From a virus (lineage: Duplodnaviria > Heunggongvirae > Uroviricota > Caudoviricetes), in IMG/VR virus record IMGVR_UViG_2851971941_000003: a stretch of DNA of 37,853 bases; one strand, 5' to 3'. This document shows, piece after piece, positions 3,070 through 36,485 of the stretch. The notes under the pieces were generated by a model, which saw only the letters and a list, made by a program, of their open reading frames with translations, was not told the DNA's origin and did no database searches. Positions within the stretch are counted from its first letter, which is position 1; the number at the start of each line of letters is the position of its first letter. A program made the translations under genes and the position numbers.

Positions 3070-4118
3070 GAAATCGTCCCCAGTACCGCCAGTTCATTTT
3101 TTGCAATGGAGATATTGTCTGCCGGTGCAAGCAACTGATGGCTGTATTCCCCGTTCGCACCGGAAATCGCCTCACTGATACGCGATACCTTCAGTTCTCC
3201 CTGCGGATAACCATCACGCAGCAGGAACGAACGCAACTCCGCGGTGATGGCAGCCCGTATTTCCGGTGTGTCCGGCGTCACGCGGATATGAAAATCCACC
3301 GTATGTGCCACCGGCCTGAACACATACAAATCAGAGCCTGCCACCGGGGCCAGTGGCCCGATATGTTGTCTTGCCGCCGTTTCCGTTGATTCTTCCGGAA
3401 TGGGATTAATCAGGTCACTGCTGGCAATCATCACACCGACAGTTCCCGTTCCCATCCAGTGACGGTATGTCCATGCGCGGGTAATGCCGGGCACTTCTTT
3501 AGCCCAGACGACATAGTCCCCGTCAGCCCCGCCCTGCGGCGTCCAGTAATACCGCTCAATGACGCGGGCGCGCCACGTTTCCAGCTCTTCAGTATCAAAT
3601 CCGCCTGTCAGGGTGTCAGCCACACCGGAAGACGGCAGACCATTCACCGGCGTGACCAGGATTAATGCCGTACCGTCGTCAGCGTTACCGACCGCGCCTG
3701 CACTTGAGCAGGCGATCGGCACGCGCAGGACACCACCGGAGCTGGTTGCATCGGCAGTTGCCGTGTACTGAACCAGGTCATCGCGCTGAATAACACTCCC
3801 GGCGGTCACCTTCAGGCCATCGCTGACACCTTCCCAGCGCATATACCCGCTGGCAGCCGTGGCCCCCTTGCGCGGACACCGTTTCATCGCAGCATGTCGC
3901 GCCAGCCAGGACTCATCGCACAGGTCAGGCAGCATGTTCATTGCCAGATAATCGATGTACCCGTAAACCGTATGCAGCGCCGCCGCATACACCTTTGCCC
4001 GCACGTCTTCATCCATGCGCCGGAGCGTGTCGCTGACGTCCAGCCTGGCGAATAAATCGTTACGGAGCATACTGATATTTTCTGCCAGCGTCGGGCGCTG
4101 AAATTCACTGTCCGCCAT
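3060..4118 (-). CDS. Baseplate J-like protein (Mu gp47 / P2 gpJ family)
   Basis: 352 aa; size and position in a Mu-order tail module. Confidence 0.7.
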
Positions 4119-4533
4119 GCGTTATCGCACTCCACAGATCATCAAAAGAAATCATTACCGGTCCGTCACGACGCCAGAGGGTGATACTGTTACCCAGTTC
4201 ATTAATCCCGGTGCGGCGGATATCCAGATCAATACGGGACACCACGCCGTCATCAATCATCCATTGCAGGCATTCGCGGATATACCCCCTTACCGTCAGC
4301 ACCAGCTGATTGGTCAGTTTGCTGCGCTGAAGCAGCCACAGTCGGGAGCCGTAACGGTCATTCTGTACCGCAGGCCAGGTATCCCCCCACCATCCCATCG
4401 GGACGTCGGCGTTGTCATCAGGCTCCGCCCGCCGCCAGGTAAACAGGGAAATCACCACGGCGCGGGTCAGCGGATCCAGCGGTGCGCTGGCGCAGGTGCG
4501 TTTACCGTTCACCGTCAGCCACAGTTCCATCAT
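4105..4533 (-). CDS. Baseplate protein, Mu gp46-like
   Basis: 142 aa; ends overlap both neighbours in a Mu-like baseplate operon. Confidence 0.55.
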   Translation of the reverse strand: MMELWLTVNGKRTCASAPLDPLTRAVVISLFTWRRAEPDDNADVPMGWWGDTWPAVQNDRYGSRLWLLQRSKLTNQLVLTVRGYIRECLQWMIDDGVVSRIDLDIRRTGINELGNSITLWRRDGPVMISFDDLWSAITHGGQ

Positions 4534-5078: not shown

Positions 5079-6157
5079 CAGAACGGGTCCTCCTGTACTC
5101 TGGCTTTTTTCTTTTTCCGCGCGCCGGGGGCTTCGGGTTCAGGCAGATAAGCATCAGGTGGGCCGACACGGATTTCCGTCAGGGTGCCATTCTGGTCCTG
5201 AGTAAACGTGACTTCCGAGACAAGCAGTTCGGTATTGTCGAAACCACAGACCGGATCGAAGACAATCACCCGCTGGTTGGGCTGCCACAGCGTACCGTTA
5301 CCCTGTCGCCAGCCCTGCACCACATAGGTGGTTTCATCCGTCCGCGCCGCCCGTTGTCGGGCTTCAAAGTCAGCACGCGCAATACAGCCTGCCCCCGTAG
5401 CCTGCCCTGTCTGCCTGATATACATCGGACGGTAACGGGCAATAAATGCATCCTCTGTGCGGGCCCGCAGCGCGGTGGTGGTGGCCTCACCGAAATCATC
5501 GTCGTTTCCGGCACGCTGCCCCGCCACCTGGTAAACTGAAAACCGCTCCCGGATACTCTTCTCCGTATCACAGGAAAGGATGTTTTCCCCAAGTACCAGC
5601 GCGGTATGTGCCTGCGTTGAGCCAATACCACCAATCACCAGCCTGCCGTGCGGGTCGTCATAAGCCAGCGCCTGCTGCTGACCGAGTATTTTGTTGATCA
5701 CCTCGATCACCGTTTCACCGTGATCAGGCTGGACATCCGGAATAACACCCGACGGCGCATCGCTGTTCACCACCTCAATGCCGAAAGGCGCAGCAAGCGC
5801 CTGCGCAATCTGTACCAGCGATCGTCCGTTAAACTGTGTCGGTTCGGCTGCACAGTCAATCAGGTCAGCAGTCAGACTACGTCCGGCAATACCGGTGCTG
5901 ACCGAACGGGCATCGTAACGAACGGGGGTCGCCTCCACCCAGCCGGTGATCACCAGCTCATCACCAATCAGCACTTCCACTTTTGAACCATTTTTAATGC
6001 GCGGCTGAAGCGTGGTGATACCCTCATCACCCGGCCACTGGCGGGTGATCTCCACGCTGAAATCCCGCGCCAGCCGTTCAATACCGGCACCGATGCGCAC
6101 CGATGTCCAGCCATTCCACTCCCGGCCATTTACCCGTAGCGTGACATTGTCGTTCAT
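5078..6157 (-). CDS. Baseplate hub-like tail protein (Mu gp44 / P2 gpD-like)
   Basis: 359 aa; position after the DNA-circulation-like gene. Confidence 0.55.
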   Translation of the reverse strand: MNDNVTLRVNGREWNGWTSVRIGAGIERLARDFSVEITRQWPGDEGITTLQPRIKNGSKVEVLIGDELVITGWVEATPVRYDARSVSTGIAGRSLTADLIDCAAEPTQFNGRSLVQIAQALAAPFGIEVVNSDAPSGVIPDVQPDHGETVIEVINKILGQQQALAYDDPHGRLVIGGIGSTQAHTALVLGENILSCDTEKSIRERFSVYQVAGQRAGNDDDFGEATTTALRARTEDAFIARYRPMYIRQTGQATGAGCIARADFEARQRAARTDETTYVVQGWRQGNGTLWQPNQRVIVFDPVCGFDNTELLVSEVTFTQDQNGTLTEIRVGPPDAYLPEPEAPGARKKKKARVQEDPF

Positions 6158-7482
6158 TGCACTGGCACCTTCAGAGGGATCACCGGCACAAAGCCGGGAT
6201 GCGTAATGGCATTACGCCGGATAATGTCCGCGTCACGCGCCGCGTTATCAAACCAGGTCGCCGCCAGCACCAGCGCGGGTAAAACCTCATCCGGTGTGCG
6301 CTGAATGATCCGTGCAGACTGTTCAAGGCGCGTGTTGATATCCGCATTCAGATCTGCTTTCACCCGGCGCAGCGCCAGAAACAGCGCATCGCTGGTTGTA
6401 CGGGACAACTCCTTATCAATTGCCGTATTCAGTGTGTCGCGAATGTCAGTCAGTTCTTCCCACGTCGGCAGGTCAACCGTGTTTTTCACCGCCGGTGCAT
6501 TGTTCAGTGCCGGATGCGTGACGGAAGGCCAGCCAGTGCTCTGCGCGGGTGTTGTTGCCTGCCCCACTGCGGAATTCTGCATCACCGCGGAAGTTGTTGG
6601 CGCAGGCAATCGGGTGACGGCATACGCCGCTTCGCTGATTGCGGTCGTACGAAGGGTGCTGGCAACCACGTTACGCTGCTGCGTCGCCGTGGCGGTGGTT
6701 TTACTGTCCGTTTTCCAGACGCCGCGCGGTTGCAGATCGCTGCCGAGGCTGACACCGGAAAGCGTTTTGATCATGGTGACCAGGTCGCTGGCGTTACCAT
6801 AAAGGCGTTTCCCGGTACGCCACATTTTCTGCACCTGCTCAACGAAATTTTTGCCTGACGATGGCGGCGGCAGAAGTACCGAGATATCCCCCTGCAACAG
6901 CCTGGCGGCATCCGATACGGCAGAATCCACCACTTTCATCGCATCAGAAACATACCCCAGCATTATGCTGGCATTACCGATAACGTCGTTCTGCACGAAA
7001 TCCGCCACACCATCGATACTGAAACCGCTGAAGCTGTCACTGATGCAGTCATCCAGTGCAGAACAGGATGACATCAGCGTCTGCGCCGTCGCCGCACCTG
7101 ATGTGGGGTAAGAGAGTTCTCCTGCTTCGACAAACTTCAGGTCAAAGCGGACAATACGCCCTTCACTTTTCGATGTGCTGACCCGAACTTCCCCGTCAAC
7201 ACAGACTTTCAGCTCACCGTATGTCGGATGGACAAGCGTGCCGGGACCGGGTTTATTCAGCGCGTCAATCAGGCGATCGCGCTGGTCAAAGCAGTCATCT
7301 CCCACCACATAAGCCGTGATGGACGGGCGGAAAGTGACTTTTCCCAGATCTTCGGTATAGGGTTTGTCGCGGTTCGGGTATTCGTGCGTTTCCACACGGC
7401 GACCTGTTCCCGCACTTTCTTCTTCGACCTTAAACGGCACGCCGCGAAATGACGCGTCCTGAAGCCTGTCTTTCCACGTCAT
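6154..7482 (-). CDS. DNA circulation protein-like tail protein (Mu gp43 family)
   Basis: 442 aa; N-terminal region typical of the Mu gp43 family as I remember it; follows the tape measure gene as in Mu. Confidence 0.6.
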   Translation of the reverse strand: MTWKDRLQDASFRGVPFKVEEESAGTGRRVETHEYPNRDKPYTEDLGKVTFRPSITAYVVGDDCFDQRDRLIDALNKPGPGTLVHPTYGELKVCVDGEVRVSTSKSEGRIVRFDLKFVEAGELSYPTSGAATAQTLMSSCSALDDCISDSFSGFSIDGVADFVQNDVIGNASIMLGYVSDAMKVVDSAVSDAARLLQGDISVLLPPPSSGKNFVEQVQKMWRTGKRLYGNASDLVTMIKTLSGVSLGSDLQPRGVWKTDSKTTATATQQRNVVASTLRTTAISEAAYAVTRLPAPTTSAVMQNSAVGQATTPAQSTGWPSVTHPALNNAPAVKNTVDLPTWEELTDIRDTLNTAIDKELSRTTSDALFLALRRVKADLNADINTRLEQSARIIQRTPDEVLPALVLAATWFDNAARDADIIRRNAITHPGFVPVIPLKVPVQ

Positions 7483-7543: not shown

Positions 7544-8074
7544 TTAGCGAGTCAGAAACAACGAATCTTTATACTTTTGCTGTTGTTCATTTAAATACTT
7601 AGCTGTTTCATCGCTGGCAAATGGAAATATTACCGTATTTTTAGGCATGGTAATTTCTTTTTTGTCCAGCGTCAGAGTAAACATAGGAACATACTGAGCA
7701 GAGTAACGCACCGCAGAAACGAGCTCTAGTTTAGACTCTTCAACAACACTTAAATTATCCAGGCTAACTTTCTCTTCATCTTTTTTCTTTGACGCATTTA
7801 AAGTTTTTATTACTTTATTTAATTTCTCCTGAAAATCCTCCTTAAAGTTTTCAGGATTGCCGTCGACAACAAGAATCTGTTCACCCTGATTATCTGGAAA
7901 AATAATCTTTGCACTTATCAATTTATTTTCTTTATAAACATCACCAAGTTTTATGGCTCCTCCAGATAACTGAATAATATGTTCATCTTTAAAGGAGATG
8001 TTGCCAGAGATTATGAGAGATGAAAAAATAGCCGCTGCTCCAAGAATTACACTTGCTGTGATATAGCCTTTCAT
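7544..8074 (-). CDS. AT-rich moron: exported protein with N-terminal signal peptide, unknown function
   Basis: 176 aa; hydrophobic N-terminus MKGYITASVILGAAAIFSSLIISG with no lipobox cysteine; visibly AT-rich against GC-rich tail genes; own terminator. Confidence 0.65.
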   Translation of the reverse strand: MKGYITASVILGAAAIFSSLIISGNISFKDEHIIQLSGGAIKLGDVYKENKLISAKIIFPDNQGEQILVVDGNPENFKEDFQEKLNKVIKTLNASKKKDEEKVSLDNLSVVEESKLELVSAVRYSAQYVPMFTLTLDKKEITMPKNTVIFPFASDETAKYLNEQQQKYKDSLFLTR

Positions 8075-8165: not shown

Positions 8166-9998
8166 CTACCAAAATCGGGTATAGCCAACATCGTGATTTA
8201 TATCAATGCCACTGGAGCGTGTTTCCGTAACCCGCATACCTGATGGCATATTTATAAATGATACCTTGATCTCACCATCAACTTTTGGCGCGGTAGCTTT
8301 ATTAATCATGAAAGGATTCGGGCCTGTGGCACCGGAGGCGTTGTTTGCCTGAGCCGGATCCACCTCCGGATAAGGAGTGTATCCCCGTGGCGGTATTCCC
8401 GTCCCATAAGCATCATAAGCACCCGCGCCCCACTGCGCCGAGTTAATGGCATCGACCGTGTCACCGGAACTGTCGGTAAACCACTCAATAATTGGCTTCA
8501 GCTTATCCCACATATCCTGAAACCACTTAACAACCGGTCCCCAGTTATTGATCACCATCCCCAGCGGCGACCAGGCAAAAACCTTCTTCAGAAGTTCCCA
8601 GCCAGCCTCAAAATAAGGACTAATGGTTTCCCAGAGCTTCTTGAAATAAGGTCCGACAACATCCCAGTTAGTGATAATTAATCCCGCAGCCAGGGCTATC
8701 GCCGTCGCAATCATGCCAATCGGCGTCATCGACATAATCCTGCTGACAATACTGATGGCACCGCCAACGCCCATCAATCCCAGTTTCAGAATCGCAAGAC
8801 CGGCAGCAAGCCCGACGACGCCGCGAATAACCCGGGGATTTTCATCCGCAAACTTCGTGAATTTTTCCCCCAACTCCCCCAGCCATTGCGTGATATTTTT
8901 GGCGTCACCAGAAAATGCGCCGCCAATAGCCGCAAGGCCGTTAGTTGCGGTCCCCGTCATTGCCTCCCACAGGTTGGACAGCGTACCAAGCTGGGCCTGA
9001 ACACGTTTATTCAGGCTGGCCTGTTTATTCATCTTCTGCTGGATCTGATCGTAGCCATCCTTTCCTTTATCGATTAGTGCATTGACCACCTGAAGGGTTT
9101 CGGCATCATCACCAAATATTGCCTTAAGTACACCTGTTCGCTTAACGTCGGTCAGTTTTCGCAGCTTTGCCAGTTGCCTGAACATGTTATCAAGACCGCC
9201 AAAACTCCCTTTGCCGTCAGTAAAATCGAGCTGTACCCCGAGTTTCTGGCGGGCCATGACTTTATTGACGTCCCTGATTTTCTTAACGCTTAATCCGGAC
9301 TGGATAACTTTTCGCAGGGCATTACCTGCCGACTCCCCGTTCATCCCCATCTGATCCATCATGACGCTGATGGGGGCAAGGCTCTGTGCAGCCTGAAGAC
9401 CGTCCTTGTTCACCATCTTCAGAACAGAACTGGTTTTAGTGAAGAAGGACAACATGTTGGTATCGTCAACGCCCAGATAAAACGCCTTCTGGATAGTGTC
9501 GAACAGCCCCATCATGTCTTCTGACGCCGTTCCGGTAGCATCCTGCATCTTTGCAGCAAACTCAGCAGCCGCTTCCGGTGTTTTTTTCAGTTGTACCGCA
9601 AGATAAGCTGTCGCTTTACCCACACCACCCAGGATGTTTTCTGCCGGGATCCCCTGACGCACCAGCATCTGCATCATGTTCTGGAAATCAGCCGTTGTAC
9701 CGGGTAGCTGGTTACCCAGGCCAATAGCCAGTTTATTGATGTCCTGAAAGCTCTTTCCAACCTCGCCGTTCGCATCCATCATGGCGACTTTCAGCCCGGT
9801 GGCGGCGTTTTCCTGATCGGCATAAGATTTCAGGGAAAGCGTCAGACCCGCTGCCAGTCCGCCACCAAGCGCCAGCCCACCCTGTGACGCTTCTTCCGCC
9901 TGGCGTTTAAATCCCCGGATTTTCTTTTGCATTTTCGACAGCGCTGGAGAAAGCCTGTCGACACCGGTGATCAACGCCTTAAGCTCAAATTCAGCCAT
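8166..9998 (-). CDS. Tail tape measure protein
   Basis: 610 aa; glycine/alanine-rich repetitive protein directly after the frameshifted chaperone gene. Confidence 0.85.
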   Translation of the reverse strand: MAEFELKALITGVDRLSPALSKMQKKIRGFKRQAEEASQGGLALGGGLAAGLTLSLKSYADQENAATGLKVAMMDANGEVGKSFQDINKLAIGLGNQLPGTTADFQNMMQMLVRQGIPAENILGGVGKATAYLAVQLKKTPEAAAEFAAKMQDATGTASEDMMGLFDTIQKAFYLGVDDTNMLSFFTKTSSVLKMVNKDGLQAAQSLAPISVMMDQMGMNGESAGNALRKVIQSGLSVKKIRDVNKVMARQKLGVQLDFTDGKGSFGGLDNMFRQLAKLRKLTDVKRTGVLKAIFGDDAETLQVVNALIDKGKDGYDQIQQKMNKQASLNKRVQAQLGTLSNLWEAMTGTATNGLAAIGGAFSGDAKNITQWLGELGEKFTKFADENPRVIRGVVGLAAGLAILKLGLMGVGGAISIVSRIMSMTPIGMIATAIALAAGLIITNWDVVGPYFKKLWETISPYFEAGWELLKKVFAWSPLGMVINNWGPVVKWFQDMWDKLKPIIEWFTDSSGDTVDAINSAQWGAGAYDAYGTGIPPRGYTPYPEVDPAQANNASGATGPNPFMINKATAPKVDGEIKVSFINMPSGMRVTETRSSGIDINHDVGYTRFW

Positions 9999-20846: not shown

Positions 20847-21440
20847 CTAAAATATGGATGTTAAATAATTGCTAAGTCTTTTTGCATTCTTACAGAATGC
20901 CAAAGCATCTTCCTGAGTACATAAGAGCTTTCCTTGGGATATAGGCTTAATAGACTCTCCTGTTTTTTCATAGAGCTTAACAATGTCACTAGAAATTTTG
21001 TTTGCAGATTGGACATTTTTCAAGGCAGCGATACCTGAAGCCCGCCCTAAAGATGTCCCGTTGATCTCAATCCCCTTTTTAGATGCAAGCGTTATAGCGG
21101 TTAACTCCAATTCGCGCCAAGCTGAAAGTACAGCAACATTAGGCTGAGTACTAGCAAGACTCTCAAAAATATTGAAATTCTCAATGAGTTGAGTCGGCAG
21201 GACAGGATTTGTTCCAGGTAAATTTTTAATAACCTCTATACTTTTAGATTCTATTTCAAACATTTCTTTTTTAAATTTAATCTCATAGTCACCTAGCTTA
21301 ACTGTATTAAGACGACCTAAAACCATTATTATTTCTTTTTTTAAAGTAAAAAAGACAATCAAACAAGCAAGAACAATAAATAAAACATTGCCTTCTTTAA
21401 GAAGCATCTCTATCCAGTAAAAAAAAGTATAGTCCGTCAT
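20847..21440 (-). CDS. AT-rich membrane-anchored hypothetical protein (197 aa)
   Basis: N-terminal hydrophobic helix (VLFIVLACLIVFFTL) then a soluble domain; lies between the lysis cassette and the HNH gene. Confidence 0.55.
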   Translation of the reverse strand: MTDYTFFYWIEMLLKEGNVLFIVLACLIVFFTLKKEIIMVLGRLNTVKLGDYEIKFKKEMFEIESKSIEVIKNLPGTNPVLPTQLIENFNIFESLASTQPNVAVLSAWRELELTAITLASKKGIEINGTSLGRASGIAALKNVQSANKISSDIVKLYEKTGESIKPISQGKLLCTQEDALAFCKNAKRLSNYLTSIF

Positions 21441-22632: not shown

Positions 22633-22959
22633 TTACTCCTTCGAGCTACCAAATTTGTTACCGATTACTCGCATTGCAGCCCCACGAATAGCATCGACAC
22701 CGATCAGCCCAACGCCGCCACCAATGGCAACAGAAAGCGATTTAGGCCATCCGACATACTCAAGAGCGGATGCAAAAGTCAGCGTCAGAGCACCACAGAG
22801 CAAAATCTCGAGCGTTTTTCGTTTCCAGCCACCACCACTGCCAAAATAGGCAATACGTAAACCAGCCATAACGATCGACATAATCACTGCGCCCAGCGGT
22901 GTGTCTCCACGCCACCAGCTCTGGACCAACTCCAGCCAGGTATTTGGGTTATGAGGCAT
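22633..22959 (-). CDS. Holin-like membrane protein
   Basis: 108 aa with several hydrophobic segments, immediately upstream of the endolysin. Confidence 0.6.
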   Translation of the reverse strand: MPHNPNTWLELVQSWWRGDTPLGAVIMSIVMAGLRIAYFGSGGGWKRKTLEILLCGALTLTFASALEYVGWPKSLSVAIGGGVGLIGVDAIRGAAMRVIGNKFGSSKE

Positions 22960-23099
22960 TTGTAGTTATCTCTCACCTCGCCGATACAGGAGGTGCAAAT
23001 TGAGGGAGTACCACGAACCGCAAATCAGAAGCGGAAACGTAAAAGAAGCCGAGCCAATGGATAAGTACTAGATAGAACAAGCCCAACGAATACCAAGGC

Positions 23100-23133
23100 C
23101 CAGAAACGACAAAACCCGCTCAATGGCGGGTTT
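23100..23133 (-). terminator. Minus-strand rho-independent terminator upstream of the holin (tR'-like)
   Basis: Stem aaacccgc/gcgggttt with 6-nt loop, followed on the minus strand by a U-rich tract. Confidence 0.45.
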
Positions 23134-23178
23134 AAGCTGTGTGGCGACGTAACCACTCTTAACACGATACAATACTTT

Positions 23179-23207
23179 TTGCGTACGCGTTAGCATTTTA
23201 GTAATAT
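23179..23207 (+). promoter_or_regulatory. Sigma70-like promoter for the three-gene cassette
   Basis: TTGCGT - 17 bp - TAATAT, about 35 nt upstream of the ATG at 23241. Not validated. Confidence 0.35.
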
Positions 23208-23240
23208 TCTGAAGTACGTTTATCTATTGAATCTATACAA

Positions 23241-24332
23241 ATGAAGAAAATCGAAAAACTGTTCACTGAAGTAATACGGAAGTTGCGCCATAAGAAATTT
23301 ATGCGCTCGATAGCTAGTAAAAGAAGCACAACAGAAAGAAAGCTAAAACGTAATGGAAGTTTAAAAAAAATCGCTCCAGAGAAAATACTTGCTCCAACCA
23401 TACTTGATATTTACAAGGCGGAATATCATGAGAATGTGGTTAATTTTATAGAAAAAATAGAAAACAAAGCAAAGACAGGAAATAAAAAGATATATATATG
23501 TTTTAGAAATACAATTCATATATCGGCTGCTGCTGGCTTATTTCTTCTTGCAAAACTAGAGACGTTAAAAAGCAATCATAGGGACTTAAAATATATCGTA
23601 GCCAAACCGCCAATCAAAACTTCATCAAAAGGAGAACAGCACGTTGTTGATTCTGTTTTGAACAGAATCGGAATCTATGCAGCATTAGGTGTTAAATCAA
23701 GAGAAATGAGAGAAACTCCGTCTGTAAAATGTTGGGAGGTAATTCGTGGCGAACTAGTAGATTCGGAAATTGCAGGAAACTTATTAGAAACAATCACAGA
23801 AAAAATGGGTACCGATTATACAGATTTATATCGTCCCTTGATAGAAGCCATGTCTAATTCAGTAGAACATGCATATCGAGACGATTTATATGACTCAAAT
23901 AAAAATAACAATAAAAATAAATGGTGGTGCTTTGCTGCAATTATGAACAACAAGTTAATATTACTAATTTGTGACCTCGGTGTAGGTATACCTAAAACGT
24001 TAAAACTTACTCAAGGTGAAAAGGTTCTTGCAAAGCTAACCGAGTTCCTTGGTAAGCCATTAGTCCTTGATTCAGAACATATAAAAGCCTCATTGCAGGT
24101 TAAACGAACCCGAACAAAGCTTGGATACAGAGGGAAAGGAGGAACTGATTTACAATCTATCATAGAAAACTTTGAAAATGCACAATTACGAATTATATCC
24201 AACAAAGGAAATTACAGATATACTCATCGTAAGAAAGCAAGACCAGAGTTAATGTGGGATGCCAAACATTCCATCAACGGTACTATAGTTGAATGGAGCG
24301 TACCGCTACCAAATGAAGGAGACTCTCAATGA
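23241..24332 (+). CDS. GHKL-superfamily ATPase / RsbW-like kinase-fold protein with unassigned basic N-terminal domain
   Basis: 363 aa; N-box EAMSNSVEHAY (aa 202-212), G1 box DLGVG (aa 245-249), G2-like GYRGKGGTD (aa 296-304). AT-rich; stop overlaps the next start (ATGA). Confidence 0.75.
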   Translation: MKKIEKLFTEVIRKLRHKKFMRSIASKRSTTERKLKRNGSLKKIAPEKILAPTILDIYKAEYHENVVNFIEKIENKAKTGNKKIYICFRNTIHISAAAGLFLLAKLETLKSNHRDLKYIVAKPPIKTSSKGEQHVVDSVLNRIGIYAALGVKSREMRETPSVKCWEVIRGELVDSEIAGNLLETITEKMGTDYTDLYRPLIEAMSNSVEHAYRDDLYDSNKNNNKNKWWCFAAIMNNKLILLICDLGVGIPKTLKLTQGEKVLAKLTEFLGKPLVLDSEHIKASLQVKRTRTKLGYRGKGGTDLQSIIENFENAQLRIISNKGNYRYTHRKKARPELMWDAKHSINGTIVEWSVPLPNEGDSQ

Positions 24333-24646
24333 AAACCTTATTTATCAAGGACTTTTCAAGATTCCCGGGGCCTAGATACGAAAGGTTAGGTGAAAACAGT
24401 GGCGAAAAATTCCGCGATTTATTTTTGATACCAGCACTTAACGAAAATCCAGACTTAGTCATTGACTTTGATGGTGTTTTTGGCTATGGCTCATCTTTCC
24501 TTGAGGAGGCCTTTGGAGGTTTGGTGCGTAAAGGGATAGAGCGCGAAAAATTGGAGAAGCTTAAGAAGAATCTCAAAAGTAAAGATCAATACATTATTGA
24601 GGAAGTAATTTCATATATTGATGATGCTCTGCGAGATCTAAAATAA
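24329..24646 (+). CDS. STAS-like small protein (DUF4325-type), candidate partner of the ATPase
   Basis: 105 aa; block DFDGVFGYGSSFLEEAFGGL matches my memory of the DUF4325 STAS-like family; translationally coupled on both sides. Confidence 0.65.
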   Translation: MKTLFIKDFSRFPGPRYERLGENSGEKFRDLFLIPALNENPDLVIDFDGVFGYGSSFLEEAFGGLVRKGIEREKLEKLKKNLKSKDQYIIEEVISYIDDALRDLK

Positions 24647-25107
24647 TGGACACTGACGTTACTCAGAATTTATGGACAATGCCTGCAACGATTATAGCGA
24701 TTGTTGGCATTTTTTTAACAATATTAGGCTGGATAGTTACAGCAATACTTACTCGCATTAACAATGCGAAGAATTTAAAAAAACTAGAAATAAATAGACT
24801 TATTGATGAGTTATTTTATAAATTAGATTTTATTTATAGCGAAATGCTTGAATTGCTGCGAGACGATAAAAAAGACAAACAAGTCCTATATTACATTTTT
24901 ACATCATCAGTAAGGCATGTTGAGTTTATTTGCGAGCGAATTGAACTATTAGACAACAAAAAAAACAAAGACAATGGATTAATATCTGAATTAAGACAAG
25001 CATGTACTAACGATGCGAAATATGAAAAAGAAAAAATTGGAACAACATTACATGAAATCCAAAGCGCTAATGAAAAACTCAAAAACAAATATCTGAAATC
25101 ATTTTAA
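24646..25107 (+). CDS. Small membrane protein (one N-terminal TM helix, charged coiled-coil-like tail), candidate effector
   Basis: 153 aa; TM segment about aa 11-36 (TMPATIIAIVGIFLTILGWIVTAIL); start overlaps the previous stop (TAATG). Confidence 0.6.
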   Translation: MDTDVTQNLWTMPATIIAIVGIFLTILGWIVTAILTRINNAKNLKKLEINRLIDELFYKLDFIYSEMLELLRDDKKDKQVLYYIFTSSVRHVEFICERIELLDNKKNKDNGLISELRQACTNDAKYEKEKIGTTLHEIQSANEKLKNKYLKSF

Positions 25108-25109
25108 TT

Positions 25110-25143
25110 AAAAAAGAACCGGCTAAGCCGCCGGTTCTTTTTT
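25110..25143. terminator. Bidirectional rho-independent terminator between the cassette and Q
   Basis: A6 - gaaccggc - taagcc - gccggttc - T6: 8-bp GC-rich stem flanked by A-run and T-run; the T-run overlaps the Q stop codon. Confidence 0.6.
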
Positions 25144-25501
25144 AATTTATTACACAAAGGCAGCCTTCAATAAATCCAATGGCCATTTGTAATTCTTTTC
25201 TAATTGTACCATCAGAATACTTCCTCTTTTTAGCAATAGCACGAAGTGAGATGCCAACAACAAAGTGAGCAATTATCAGCTCATACTCTTCCGGCTTATA
25301 TTTACGCAACCTAGCCACACAACTATCTATCATGATGCCTTCATCATCATCACACTGGAGACGTGACTTTTTACCGTGTGGTAAAAGTCCCTTGAAACCA
25401 GCCGCTATCGGCTGCCAGTCCACACCACTGTTATCTGCTGCCGCCCATGCTCCCCAGCGGTCCAAAACTTCATACATATCACGCATCAACCTTCTCCACA
25501 A
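25142..25501 (-). CDS. Late antiterminator Q (QuuD / phage 21-like family)
   Basis: 119 aa; resembles E. coli DLP12 QuuD from memory (RWGAWAA...WQPIAAGFKGLL...RLQCDDDE...). Confidence 0.75.
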   Translation of the reverse strand: MWRRLMRDMYEVLDRWGAWAAADNSGVDWQPIAAGFKGLLPHGKKSRLQCDDDEGIMIDSCVARLRKYKPEEYELIIAHFVVGISLRAIAKKRKYSDGTIRKELQMAIGFIEGCLCVIN

Positions 25502-36409: not shown

Positions 36410-36485
36410 TGGTGCCGATAATAGGAGTCGAACCTACGACCTTCGCATTACGAATGCGCTGCTCTACCAACTGAGCTATATCGGC
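36410..36485 (-). tRNA. thrW: tRNA-Thr (anticodon CGU), prophage integration target
   Basis: Minus-strand 76-nt sequence GCCGATATAGCTCAGTTGGTAGAGCAGCGCATTCGTAATGCGAAGGTCGTAGGTTCGACTCCTATTATCGGCACCA with clover-leaf features and CGT anticodon; next to proA as thrW is in E. coli. Confidence 0.9.

What the first reader, a model, noticed from the sequence alone, without database searches (positions are those of the whole stretch)
23179..25143. Three-gene AT-rich cassette (GHKL-type ATPase + STAS-like protein + small membrane protein) in the Q-to-holin slot: candidate undescribed partner-switching defence module
Seen in sequence: three plus-strand ORFs (363, 105, 153 aa) with overlapping stop/start codons, visibly AT-rich against GC-rich phage genes, and oriented opposite to the entire late operon. 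They have a candidate sigma70 promoter (TTGCGT-17-TAATAT, 23179-23207) and a strong bidirectional terminator (25110-25143). Gene 1 carries Bergerat-fold ATP-binding motifs in its C-terminal half: N-box EAMSNSVEHAY, G1 box DLGVG and a G2-like GYRGKGGTD, as in RsbW/SpoIIAB-type kinases. Its first ~190 residues are Lys/Arg-rich and unassigned. Gene 2 resembles the STAS-like DUF4325 family and has a GYGSS loop where anti-sigma antagonists carry their phospho-acceptor serine. Gene 3 is a single-pass membrane protein with a charged coiled-coil-like tail. Established knowledge: the Q-to-lysis interval is the classical cargo site of lambdoid phages (stx lies there). Inference: a kinase/ATPase-STAS partner switch that senses infection and releases a membrane effector, expressed from the lysogen. 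I do not recognise this gene combination as a named defence system.
Basis: partly seen in the sequence, partly recalled or inferred. Interest (0 to 1): 0.9.

Follow-up and report, generated by a model that had tools for sequence, protein, structure and literature searches.

The report
Kinase–STAS–membrane protein prophage defence cassette
An E. coli prophage carries, in a slot where sister prophages carry known anti-phage systems, a conserved three-gene cassette (serine kinase, small STAS-like protein, membrane-anchored helical protein) that looks like an untested membrane-effector variant of the kinase-controlled toxin–antitoxin defence system VapKSC described in 2026.

Summary
There are three overlapping plus-strand genes (363, 105 and 153 aa). 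They are AT-rich, opposite to the late operon, and end in a strong bidirectional terminator. The proposed promoter is only a 7/12 consensus match.

- **Gene 1** has a basic tail, a STAS-like domain and a SpoIIAB/RsbW-type GHKL serine kinase.
- **Gene 2** is Pfam DUF4325 with invariant Ser55/Ser56.
- **Gene 3** is a one-pass membrane protein with a predicted cytoplasmic four-helix bundle.

The triad is a fixed unit. In 77–78 of 80 viral loci the gene-2 relative is flanked by relatives of genes 1 and 3. It recurs in several prophage cargo sites, often just after the repressor gene. In sister E. coli prophages the same holin–Q slot holds Kiwa, a KAP NTPase and other cargo.

The kinase/STAS pair is no longer undescribed. 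It is homologous to VapK/VapS of VapKSC and related to CapK/CapS (Chambers et al., EMBO J 2026). In VapKSC the kinase phosphorylates the STAS antitoxin and so frees a PIN toxin.

Here the PIN toxin is replaced by an orphan membrane protein. That combination has no PADLOC hit and I found no description of it in the searched literature.

Most likely it is an abortive-infection-type defence module with a membrane effector. Function and trigger are inferred, not shown. I rate it a new variant of a known kind.

The parts
23241..24332 (+). Gene 1 (K), 363 aa: basic N-terminal tail + STAS-like domain + GHKL serine-kinase domain; a VapK/CapK-like kinase
23241..23375 (+). Gene 1 residues 1-45: Lys/Arg-rich helical tail (absent from VapK)
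   Evidence: Mean of 15.9 K+R in the first 45 residues across 34 family members, against 15% in the rest of the protein. Predicted helix 2-28.
23379..23690 (+). Gene 1 residues ~47-150: STAS-like domain
23718..24311 (+). Gene 1 residues ~160-357: Bergerat-fold (GHKL) kinase domain. N box E202/N206/H210 (N206 codon 23856-23858), G1 D245/G247 (D245 codon 23973-23975), G2-like R297-G300
   Evidence: These columns are invariant in 34 sequences. HATPase_c_2 hits in 16 of 34 members. RsbW and SpoIIAB are the best PDB profile hits.
24329..24646 (+). Gene 2 (S), 105 aa: DUF4325 STAS-like protein with a short helical C-terminal region. Candidate phospho-acceptor S55/S56 (codons 24491-24496)
   Evidence: Pfam DUF4325 E=2.8e-15. 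GYGSSFLEEAFGGL is invariant. S55 aligns with VapS S48. VapS is also DUF4325, E=2.7e-17.
24646..25107 (+). Gene 3, 153 aa: N-terminal transmembrane helix (residues ~13-36, nt 24682-24753) continuing into a four-helix bundle that is predicted to be cytoplasmic. Near-universal T121 (codon 25006-25008). Proposed effector
25106..25147 (.). Bidirectional intrinsic terminator between gene 3 and the stop of Q
   Evidence: Hairpin -24.7 / -26.1 kcal/mol, z -7.3 / -7.4, flanked by A and T runs.
23179..23207 (+). Candidate promoter TTGCGT-17-TAATAT (weak, unverified). It straddles the backbone/cargo boundary at ~23199/23200
   Evidence: Sequence read directly. 7/12 match to consensus and not reported by the scan. 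The -35 lies in sequence conserved across prophages with different cargo.
23112..23133 (-). Context, not part of the cassette: conserved minus-strand terminator-like hairpin upstream of the holin, possibly the tR' of the Q-dependent late promoter
   Evidence: Scan hit. Fold -12.8 kcal/mol, z -2.2. Stem conserved and loop variable in six prophages.

Best explanation
The cassette is a prophage-borne, three-component anti-phage module of the toxin-antitoxin or abortive-infection type. It is built on the kinase/STAS ('K-S') switch recently described for VapKSC.

Proposed mechanism:
1. In the uninfected lysogen, gene 2 (STAS-like, DUF4325) binds the cytoplasmic four-helix bundle of gene 3 and keeps it inert.
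2. A cue from an infecting phage activates gene 1. By analogy with CapK/VapK the cue would be single-stranded DNA or another nucleic-acid intermediate. The Lys/Arg-rich tail and the STAS-GHKL groove may read it.
3. Gene 1 phosphorylates gene 2 on Ser55 (or Ser56).
4. Phosphorylated gene 2 lets go of gene 3.
5. Freed gene 3 then damages or depolarises the inner membrane and stops phage production.

Shown here:
- the domain architectures;
- homology of K and S to VapK and VapS;
- invariance of the catalytic and acceptor residues;
- obligate linkage of the three genes;
- location in defence hotspots.

Inferred:
- the kinase-substrate relation;
- binding of gene 2 to gene 3;
- toxicity of gene 3;
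- the trigger;
- protection against phage;
- expression in the lysogen.
For: K-S homology:
- The gene 1 family profile aligns to VapK across both the STAS-like and GHKL domains (hhalign 90%, E=1.5e-6; 32 bits with a broader profile).
- The best structural matches are anti-sigma serine kinases that phosphorylate STAS partners: SpoIIAB, RsbW, UsfX and SiaB.
- Gene 2 and VapS both belong to Pfam DUF4325. Invariant S55 aligns with VapS S48. That residue is the site whose phosphomimetic substitution releases the toxin (PMC13373217).
- A natural K+S fusion exists. Gene 2 matches the C-terminus of the 441-aa phrog_5816. A 'HATPase_c | DUF4325' protein is listed in the hotspot tables of Rousset 2022.

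Linkage of the three genes:
- In 80 IMG/VR loci found with gene 2, 77 have an upstream gene-1 relative (all E<=5e-31). 78 have a downstream 139-194 aa gene-3 relative.
- The same triad occurs in Vibrio, Citrobacter, Pseudomonas, Marinobacter phage AS1, Pasteurella, Leptospira, Acinetobacter and Novosphingobium.
- Genes overlap at stop/start, which suggests translational coupling.

Defence context:
- The same holin-Q slot in sister E. coli prophages, in the same orientation, carries Kiwa, a KAP NTPase and other variable cargo.
- The triad sits in the P2 A-Q (tin/old) hotspot. 'hypothetical + hypothetical + DUF4325' sets appear in the published hotspot tables.
- It often lies directly after the cI-type repressor on the same strand, as rexAB does in lambda.
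- On plasmids it lies next to toxin-antitoxin pairs.

Gene 3 topology: N-out/C-in in 66 of 70 homologues. This puts the helical bundle in the cytoplasm, where K and S are.

VapKSC itself protects E. coli against phage Bas42.
Against: - No experiment exists on this triad. PADLOC 2.0 finds nothing.
- Direct gene 2 to VapS similarity is weak outside the shared Pfam family (hhalign E=0.09; 9.9 bits).
- The aromatic residue that CapK (W68) and VapK (F54) use for ssDNA is not conserved at the aligned position in the gene 1 family. That position is H93 in gene 1 and is variable. The trigger may therefore differ.
- The gene 3 fold is a generic four-helix bundle with no known toxin relative. Nothing shows that it is toxic or that gene 2 binds it.
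- If DNA damage were the trigger, the module could fire during the prophage's own SOS induction. That would be awkward for a phage-encoded system.
- The cassette's own promoter is not established.
Confidence: 0.6

Rival explanations
1. The K-S pair is a real kinase switch, but gene 3 is not the toxin. Gene 3 would instead be a membrane anchor or sensor, for example detecting DNA injection or envelope perturbation. It could also be a superinfection-exclusion protein whose activity K-S tunes. In this reading the output is phosphorylation of phage or host proteins by gene 1, or binding of gene 2 to another target.
For: - Gene 3 has no recognisable toxin or pore fold.
- Its only near-universal residue is a threonine (T121, 97%) in an otherwise fast-evolving protein. 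That residue could be a second kinase target.
- The basic tail of gene 1 could bind acidic lipids and bring the kinase to the membrane.
Against: - The bundle is predicted to be cytoplasmic, not periplasmic.
- In the homologous VapKSC system the third gene is the toxin and the STAS protein is its antitoxin.
- No fourth conserved gene that could serve as effector travels with the triad.
Confidence: 0.2
2. The cassette serves the prophage itself rather than defending against other phages. It could be a DNA-damage-responsive module that adjusts induction or lysis timing, or a toxin-antitoxin addiction module that stabilises the prophage or plasmid.
For: - CapK, and by inference VapK, respond to DNA damage rather than to phage specifically.
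- In this window the cassette lies next to the lysis genes.
- The triad occurs on plasmids beside RelE/ParE and HepT/MNT pairs.
Against: - The triad appears at unrelated positions: cI-int, the P2 A-Q hotspot, after repressors, and Vibrio islands. It is therefore not tied to lysis genes.
- The slot it occupies here holds Kiwa in a sister prophage.
- Toxin-antitoxin-like modules in such hotspots commonly prove to be defensive, and VapKSC does protect against a phage.
Confidence: 0.12
3. It is a CapK/CapS-type transcriptional regulator. Gene 2 would repress a promoter, and phosphorylation would de-repress expression of the downstream gene.
For: The kinase + STAS pair is related to CapK/CapS, which regulate downstream immune operons.
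Against: - Gene 2 is 105 aa, and its only detected domain is DUF4325. It lacks the winged-helix DNA-binding domain that defines CapS.
- Gene 1 has no detected HTH.
- Genes 2 and 3 overlap by one base, which leaves no room for a regulated promoter. The operon ends at a terminator right after gene 3.
Confidence: 0.03

Closest known systems
VapKSC (VapK kinase / VapS STAS antitoxin / VapC PIN toxin; Chambers et al., EMBO J 2026, PMC13373217)
   Same: - Three-gene operon in the same order: kinase, small STAS protein, third protein.
- The kinase has a STAS + GHKL architecture and is detectably homologous.
- The STAS protein is ~105-116 aa, belongs to Pfam DUF4325, and has a conserved Ser at the aligned position plus a short helical C-terminal region.
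- It is found near other defence genes.
   Different: - The third gene is a membrane-anchored four-helix bundle protein of an orphan family, not a PIN nuclease.
- Gene 1 carries an extra 45-residue Lys/Arg-rich tail.
- The ssDNA-contacting aromatic residue (VapK F54) is not conserved at the aligned position.
- Sequence identity is low (about 22% over aligned columns).
- This clade is predominantly phage- or prophage-borne.
CapK/CapS (DNA-damage-activated kinase and STAS-wHTH repressor controlling CBASS, Bub and other operons; same paper)
   Same: A GHKL serine kinase with an internal STAS domain is paired with a small STAS substrate that carries a conserved serine.
   Different: - CapS has a winged-helix DNA-binding domain and acts as a repressor. 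Gene 2 has none.
- CapK has an N-terminal HTH. Gene 1 has a basic helix instead.
- No multi-gene immune operon follows.
SpoIIAB/SpoIIAA and RsbW/RsbV partner-switching modules
   Same: - The partner is a STAS protein with Ser-Ser at the start of helix 2.
   Different: - No sigma factor partner and no PP2C phosphatase.
- The kinase is fused to its own STAS-like domain.
- The proposed output is release of a membrane protein, not of a sigma factor.
Lambda RexA/RexB (functional analogue only)
   Same: - Prophage-encoded.
- In many relatives the cassette lies directly downstream of the repressor gene on the same strand.
- It has a cytoplasmic sensor plus a membrane protein as presumed executor of abortive infection (from established knowledge of RexAB).
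   Different: - No sequence or fold relationship was detected.
- RexB is polytopic, whereas gene 3 is single-pass.
- RexAB has no kinase/STAS switch.

Membership tests
VapKSC | Kinase with STAS + GHKL domains and no HTH (VapK) | tested here: met
   [not shown]
VapKSC | [quoted passage not shown] | tested here: met
   Both gene 2 and VapS hit Pfam DUF4325 (E=2.8e-15 and 2.7e-17). S55 and S56 are invariant and S55 aligns with VapS S48. Direct profile-to-VapS similarity is weak.
VapKSC | VapC-like PIN nuclease as third gene (toxin) | tested here: not met
   Gene 3 has no PIN or any other Pfam domain. It is a TM helix plus a four-helix bundle. All 78 downstream genes in viral loci belong to the gene 3 family.
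VapKSC | Phosphorylation of the STAS protein releases the toxin; activation by ssDNA; protection against phage | not testable with these tools
   This needs biochemistry, phage assays or complex structure prediction. The aligned position of the ssDNA-contacting F54 is variable in the gene 1 family.
CapK/CapS | CapS = STAS + winged-helix DNA-binding domain | tested here: not met
   Gene 2 is 105 aa. Its only detected domain is DUF4325 (residues 24-79), followed by a short helical tail.
CapK/CapS | CapK = HTH + STAS + GHKL | tested here: not met
   STAS-like and GHKL domains are present. The N-terminus is a Lys/Arg-rich helix with no HTH hit in Pfam or NCBIfam.
CapK/CapS | Located upstream of a multi-gene immune operon whose promoter it controls | tested here: not met
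   Only gene 3 follows, overlapping gene 2 by 1 nt, and then a terminator.
RsbW/RsbV-type partner switch | GHKL serine kinase of the anti-sigma type | tested here: met
   [not shown]
RsbW/RsbV-type partner switch | Sigma factor held by the kinase, and a PP2C phosphatase that resets the antagonist | tested here: not met
   No such genes are in the cassette or conserved beside it.
Known defence systems in PADLOC-DB 2.0 | A profile match of any of the three proteins to a catalogued system | tested here: not met
   Zero hits at E<=1 for all three proteins.

The most novel reading that the evidence does not exclude
The K-S-membrane triad is a distinct, mainly phage-borne immune system. A serine kinase with a nucleic-acid-binding basic tail reads a phage-specific cue different from the ssDNA signal of CapK/VapK. 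It then controls a new class of membrane-anchored four-helix-bundle executioner. Control would work through phosphorylation of the STAS protein, and possibly also through direct phosphorylation of the near-universal Thr121 of the effector. This would show that the kinase/STAS switch is a general, effector-swappable sensor module of bacterial immunity. It would also add a new membrane effector family.
Probability: 0.25. Interest if true: 0.75.

Novelty: new variant of a known kind. Interest (0 to 1): 0.6.

Why it matters
If the cassette protects against phage, the kinase/STAS switch would not be tied to PIN toxins or to transcription. So far it is known from one 2026 paper. It would instead be a portable sensor that phages and plasmids couple to different effectors, here a membrane protein.

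The cassette would also give:
- a new, small membrane effector family to study;
- a clean genetic system (three genes, about 1.9 kb, with clear point mutants);
- a further example of prophage cargo slots as exchange sites for defence systems. The holin-Q slot also holds Kiwa and a KAP NTPase, among other cargo.

If the cassette does not protect, the conserved triad still needs an explanation. It is found in 182 viral contigs and across several bacterial phyla.

Tried and rejected
- **PADLOC, NCBIfam and Pfam scans.** The three proteins gave no named system. PHROGs gave only families of unknown function.
- **Megablast against isolated phages.** No match. tblastn found only Marinobacter phage AS1.
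- **PDB sequence searches for gene 2.** Neither the single sequence nor the profile retrieved VapS or CapS. The best hit was a generic STAS protein at E=0.03. I therefore took the VapK and VapS sequences from the paper's supplementary AlphaFold file.
- **Profile search of gene 3 against 1.84 billion representatives.** It found only 15 relatives, all about the same size and with no fusions.
- **Literature searches.** I searched for DUF4325, STAS + anti-phage, GHKL + STAS, VapKSC and the three protein accessions. I also looked inside DefensePredictor and a 2025 modularity preprint. None described this triad.
- **CapKS-type transcriptional regulation.** Rejected because gene 2 lacks a DNA-binding domain.
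- **Classical partner switch.** Rejected because there is no sigma factor or phosphatase.
- **Apparent truncation of gene 3 in some Citrobacter loci.** This was a gene-caller artefact; the ORF is intact.
- **The proposed sigma-70 promoter.** It could not be supported.
Full report
**1. The observation**

The window is an HK97/lambdoid-type prophage of E. coli. It is 100% identical to strain PSUO2, and the cassette itself occurs in only 6 of 5,426 complete E. coli genomes.

They overlap by 4 nt and 1 nt. GC is 0.32-0.39, against 0.47-0.58 in the neighbouring phage genes. The holin (22633-22959) and antiterminator Q (25142-25501) flank the cassette on the opposite strand.

The terminator is a perfect hairpin flanked by A and T runs. 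It folds at -24.7 and -26.1 kcal/mol on the two strands, with z about -7.3.

The proposed promoter is present but matches the consensus at only 7 of 12 positions. The scan did not report it, and it found fewer promoter-like sites in the region than in shuffled sequence.

**2. The three proteins**

*Gene 1.*
- It has 92 homologue clusters in Enterobacterales, Vibrio, Pseudomonas, Marinomonas and others.
- 16 of 34 members hit Pfam HATPase_c_2. The best PDB profile hits are RsbW and SpoIIAB.
- An AlphaFold2 model (pLDDT 80, pTM 0.79) matches GHKL domains by Foldseek.
- The 'unassigned' N-terminal half is therefore a STAS-like domain (about residues 47-150). It is preceded by a 45-residue tail that is 35% Lys/Arg across the family.

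*Gene 2.*
- It matches Pfam DUF4325 at E=2.8e-15.
- It is the most conserved of the three. GYGSSFLEEAFGGL, including S55 and S56, is invariant in 28 homologues from many genera.
- The Ser-Ser aligns with the same motif of a solved STAS protein.

*Gene 3.*
- It has no family assignment.
- Among 70 distinct homologues, Lys/Arg residues lie after the hydrophobic helix in 66. The bundle should therefore be cytoplasmic.
- Only T121 (97%) and G28-W29 in the membrane helix are well conserved.
- A profile search of 1.84 billion representative proteins found just 15 relatives, all of similar length.

**3. The triad is one unit and lives in cargo slots**

A scan of IMG/VR with the gene 2 alignment found 182 viral contigs. 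Of the 80 loci returned, 77 have an upstream ORF matching the gene 1 profile (E<=5e-31). 78 have a downstream 139-194 aa ORF recovered from gene 3 by iterative search.

The same order is seen in the following places:
- Vibrio parahaemolyticus islands;
- Citrobacter 186-like prophages, between cI and int;
- a P2-like phage, between gpA and the portal gene, which is the tin/old hotspot;
- directly after CI/S24-type repressors;
- Marinobacter phage AS1, gp41-gp39 after the repressor-side gene gp42;
- plasmids or phage-plasmids of Pasteurella, Leptospira, Acinetobacter and Novosphingobium, in two cases beside toxin-antitoxin pairs.

The supplementary tables of Rousset et al. 2022 list 'hypothetical + hypothetical + DUF4325' gene sets in E. 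coli P2/P4 hotspots. They also list a fused 'HATPase_c | DUF4325' protein. DUF4325 does not occur in the file that lists the tested systems.

In this window the left edge of the cargo is at about 23199/23200. Sequence to the left is shared with more than a thousand prophages that carry the same holin.

In sister prophages the same slot, in the same orientation, holds:
- Kiwa (KwaA/KwaB);
- a KAP-family NTPase;
- a TIGR04255 protein plus two unknowns;
- an SDH Clp-fold protease;
- a nucleoid-associated protein plus an unknown;
- two unknowns.

This is a variable cargo site that includes at least one validated defence system.

**4. Comparison with what is known**

A literature search found Chambers et al. 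(EMBO J 2026; preprint February 2026; PMC13373217).

- CapK (HTH-STAS-GHKL kinase) phosphorylates a conserved serine of CapS (STAS-wHTH repressor) when activated by ssDNA. This de-represses downstream immune operons.
- The same paper describes VapKSC. VapK (STAS + GHKL), VapS (STAS + short C-terminal region) and VapC (PIN toxin) form a three-gene operon.
- VapS neutralises VapC, and the phosphomimetic S48E abolishes this. The operon gives about 2 logs of protection against phage Bas42.

I took the VapK and VapS sequences from the paper's supplementary model file and compared them directly.
- VapS is itself a DUF4325 protein (E=2.7e-17).
- The gene 1 family aligns to VapK over both domains (hhalign 90%, E=1.5e-6; 32 bits with a broader profile).
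- S55 of gene 2 aligns with VapS S48, although the direct similarity is weak.
- A 2017 survey had already noted a VapC subgroup transcriptionally coupled to DUF4325 genes.

The kinase/STAS pair here is thus a relative of VapK/VapS. The third gene is different. It is a membrane-anchored helical protein and not a PIN nuclease, so the cassette fails that defining feature of VapKSC. It also lacks the DNA-binding domains that define CapK/CapS. It lacks the sigma factor and phosphatase of classical partner switches. PADLOC 2.0 has no model for any of the three proteins.

**5. Most likely mechanism**

By homology and anatomy, gene 2 is the substrate of gene 1 and the keeper of gene 3. Phosphorylation of Ser55/56 would release the cytoplasmic bundle of gene 3, and the freed protein would then compromise the membrane and abort infection.

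The architecture, homology, residue conservation, gene linkage and hotspot location are shown. The kinase-substrate relation, the gene 2-gene 3 contact, toxicity, trigger, lysogenic expression and phage protection are inferred.

The trigger is the weakest step. The aromatic residue used by CapK and VapK for ssDNA is not conserved at the aligned position. Gene 1 has a basic tail that VapK lacks. A DNA-damage trigger would also clash with the prophage's own induction.

My confidence in the whole model is about 0.6. It is higher (about 0.85) for the kinase/STAS pair alone, and about 0.7 for a defence role.

**6. Rivals**

- Gene 3 as anchor, sensor or exclusion protein rather than toxin (0.2).
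- A prophage-serving or addiction module (0.12).
- CapKS-like transcriptional control (0.03). This is largely excluded by the missing DNA-binding domain and the 1-nt gene overlap.

**7. Novelty and score**

That publication removes the 'undescribed partner-switching module' claim for the K-S pair.

What remains new is the obligate pairing of this K-S clade with an orphan membrane effector family, its strong association with phages, and the basic tail on the kinase. I rate it a new variant of a known kind, with interest 0.6.

Noticed in passing
window 22960-23199 (both strands), with hairpin 23112-23133 (-): The ~240 nt between the holin start and the cargo are conserved in sister prophages regardless of cargo. 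They contain a minus-strand terminator-like hairpin whose stem is conserved while its loop varies. This looks like the Q-dependent late promoter/tR' region. If so, cargo is inserted between the Q gene and pR', not downstream of tR' as stx is. The backbone motif TTTTTGCGTACGCGTTAG abuts every cargo and may supply a shared -35 or operator.
   Followed up: partly
window 20847-21440 (-): An AT-rich (GC ~0.35) orphan ORF of 197 aa with an N-terminal hydrophobic segment, between the lysis genes and the HNH/terminase genes. It has no Pfam or PADLOC hit. Sister prophages carry other genes here (DUF6236, GrlR-family, Rha regulator), so this is a second variable slot.
   Followed up: partly
window 7544-8074 (-): An AT-rich (GC ~0.34) orphan ORF of 176 aa with an N-terminal signal or TM-like segment. 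It is wedged between the tape-measure gene (8166-9998) and a 442-aa tail protein (6154-7482). No Pfam or PADLOC hit. Candidate moron inside the tail operon.
   Followed up: partly
window 36413-36485 (-): A tRNA gene (Rfam 71.8 bits) near the right end of the window, beyond the early/regulatory genes. It is possibly the prophage attachment site.
   Followed up: no
L013 6490-6960 (+) and L099 ~3760-4290 (+): Gene-3-like ORFs (TM helix + helical domain with the conserved xT motif) are present but not annotated downstream of the K-S pair in Pseudomonas fluorescens and in a Novosphingobium plasmid. Gene callers miss this small fast-evolving gene, so database counts of the triad will be underestimates.
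   Followed up: partly
Rousset et al. 2022 supplement; phrog_5816: A fused kinase + DUF4325 protein (~441 aa) exists in phage and hotspot collections. It is a natural fusion of the gene 1 and gene 2 types. I did not examine which effector, if any, accompanies it.
   Followed up: no
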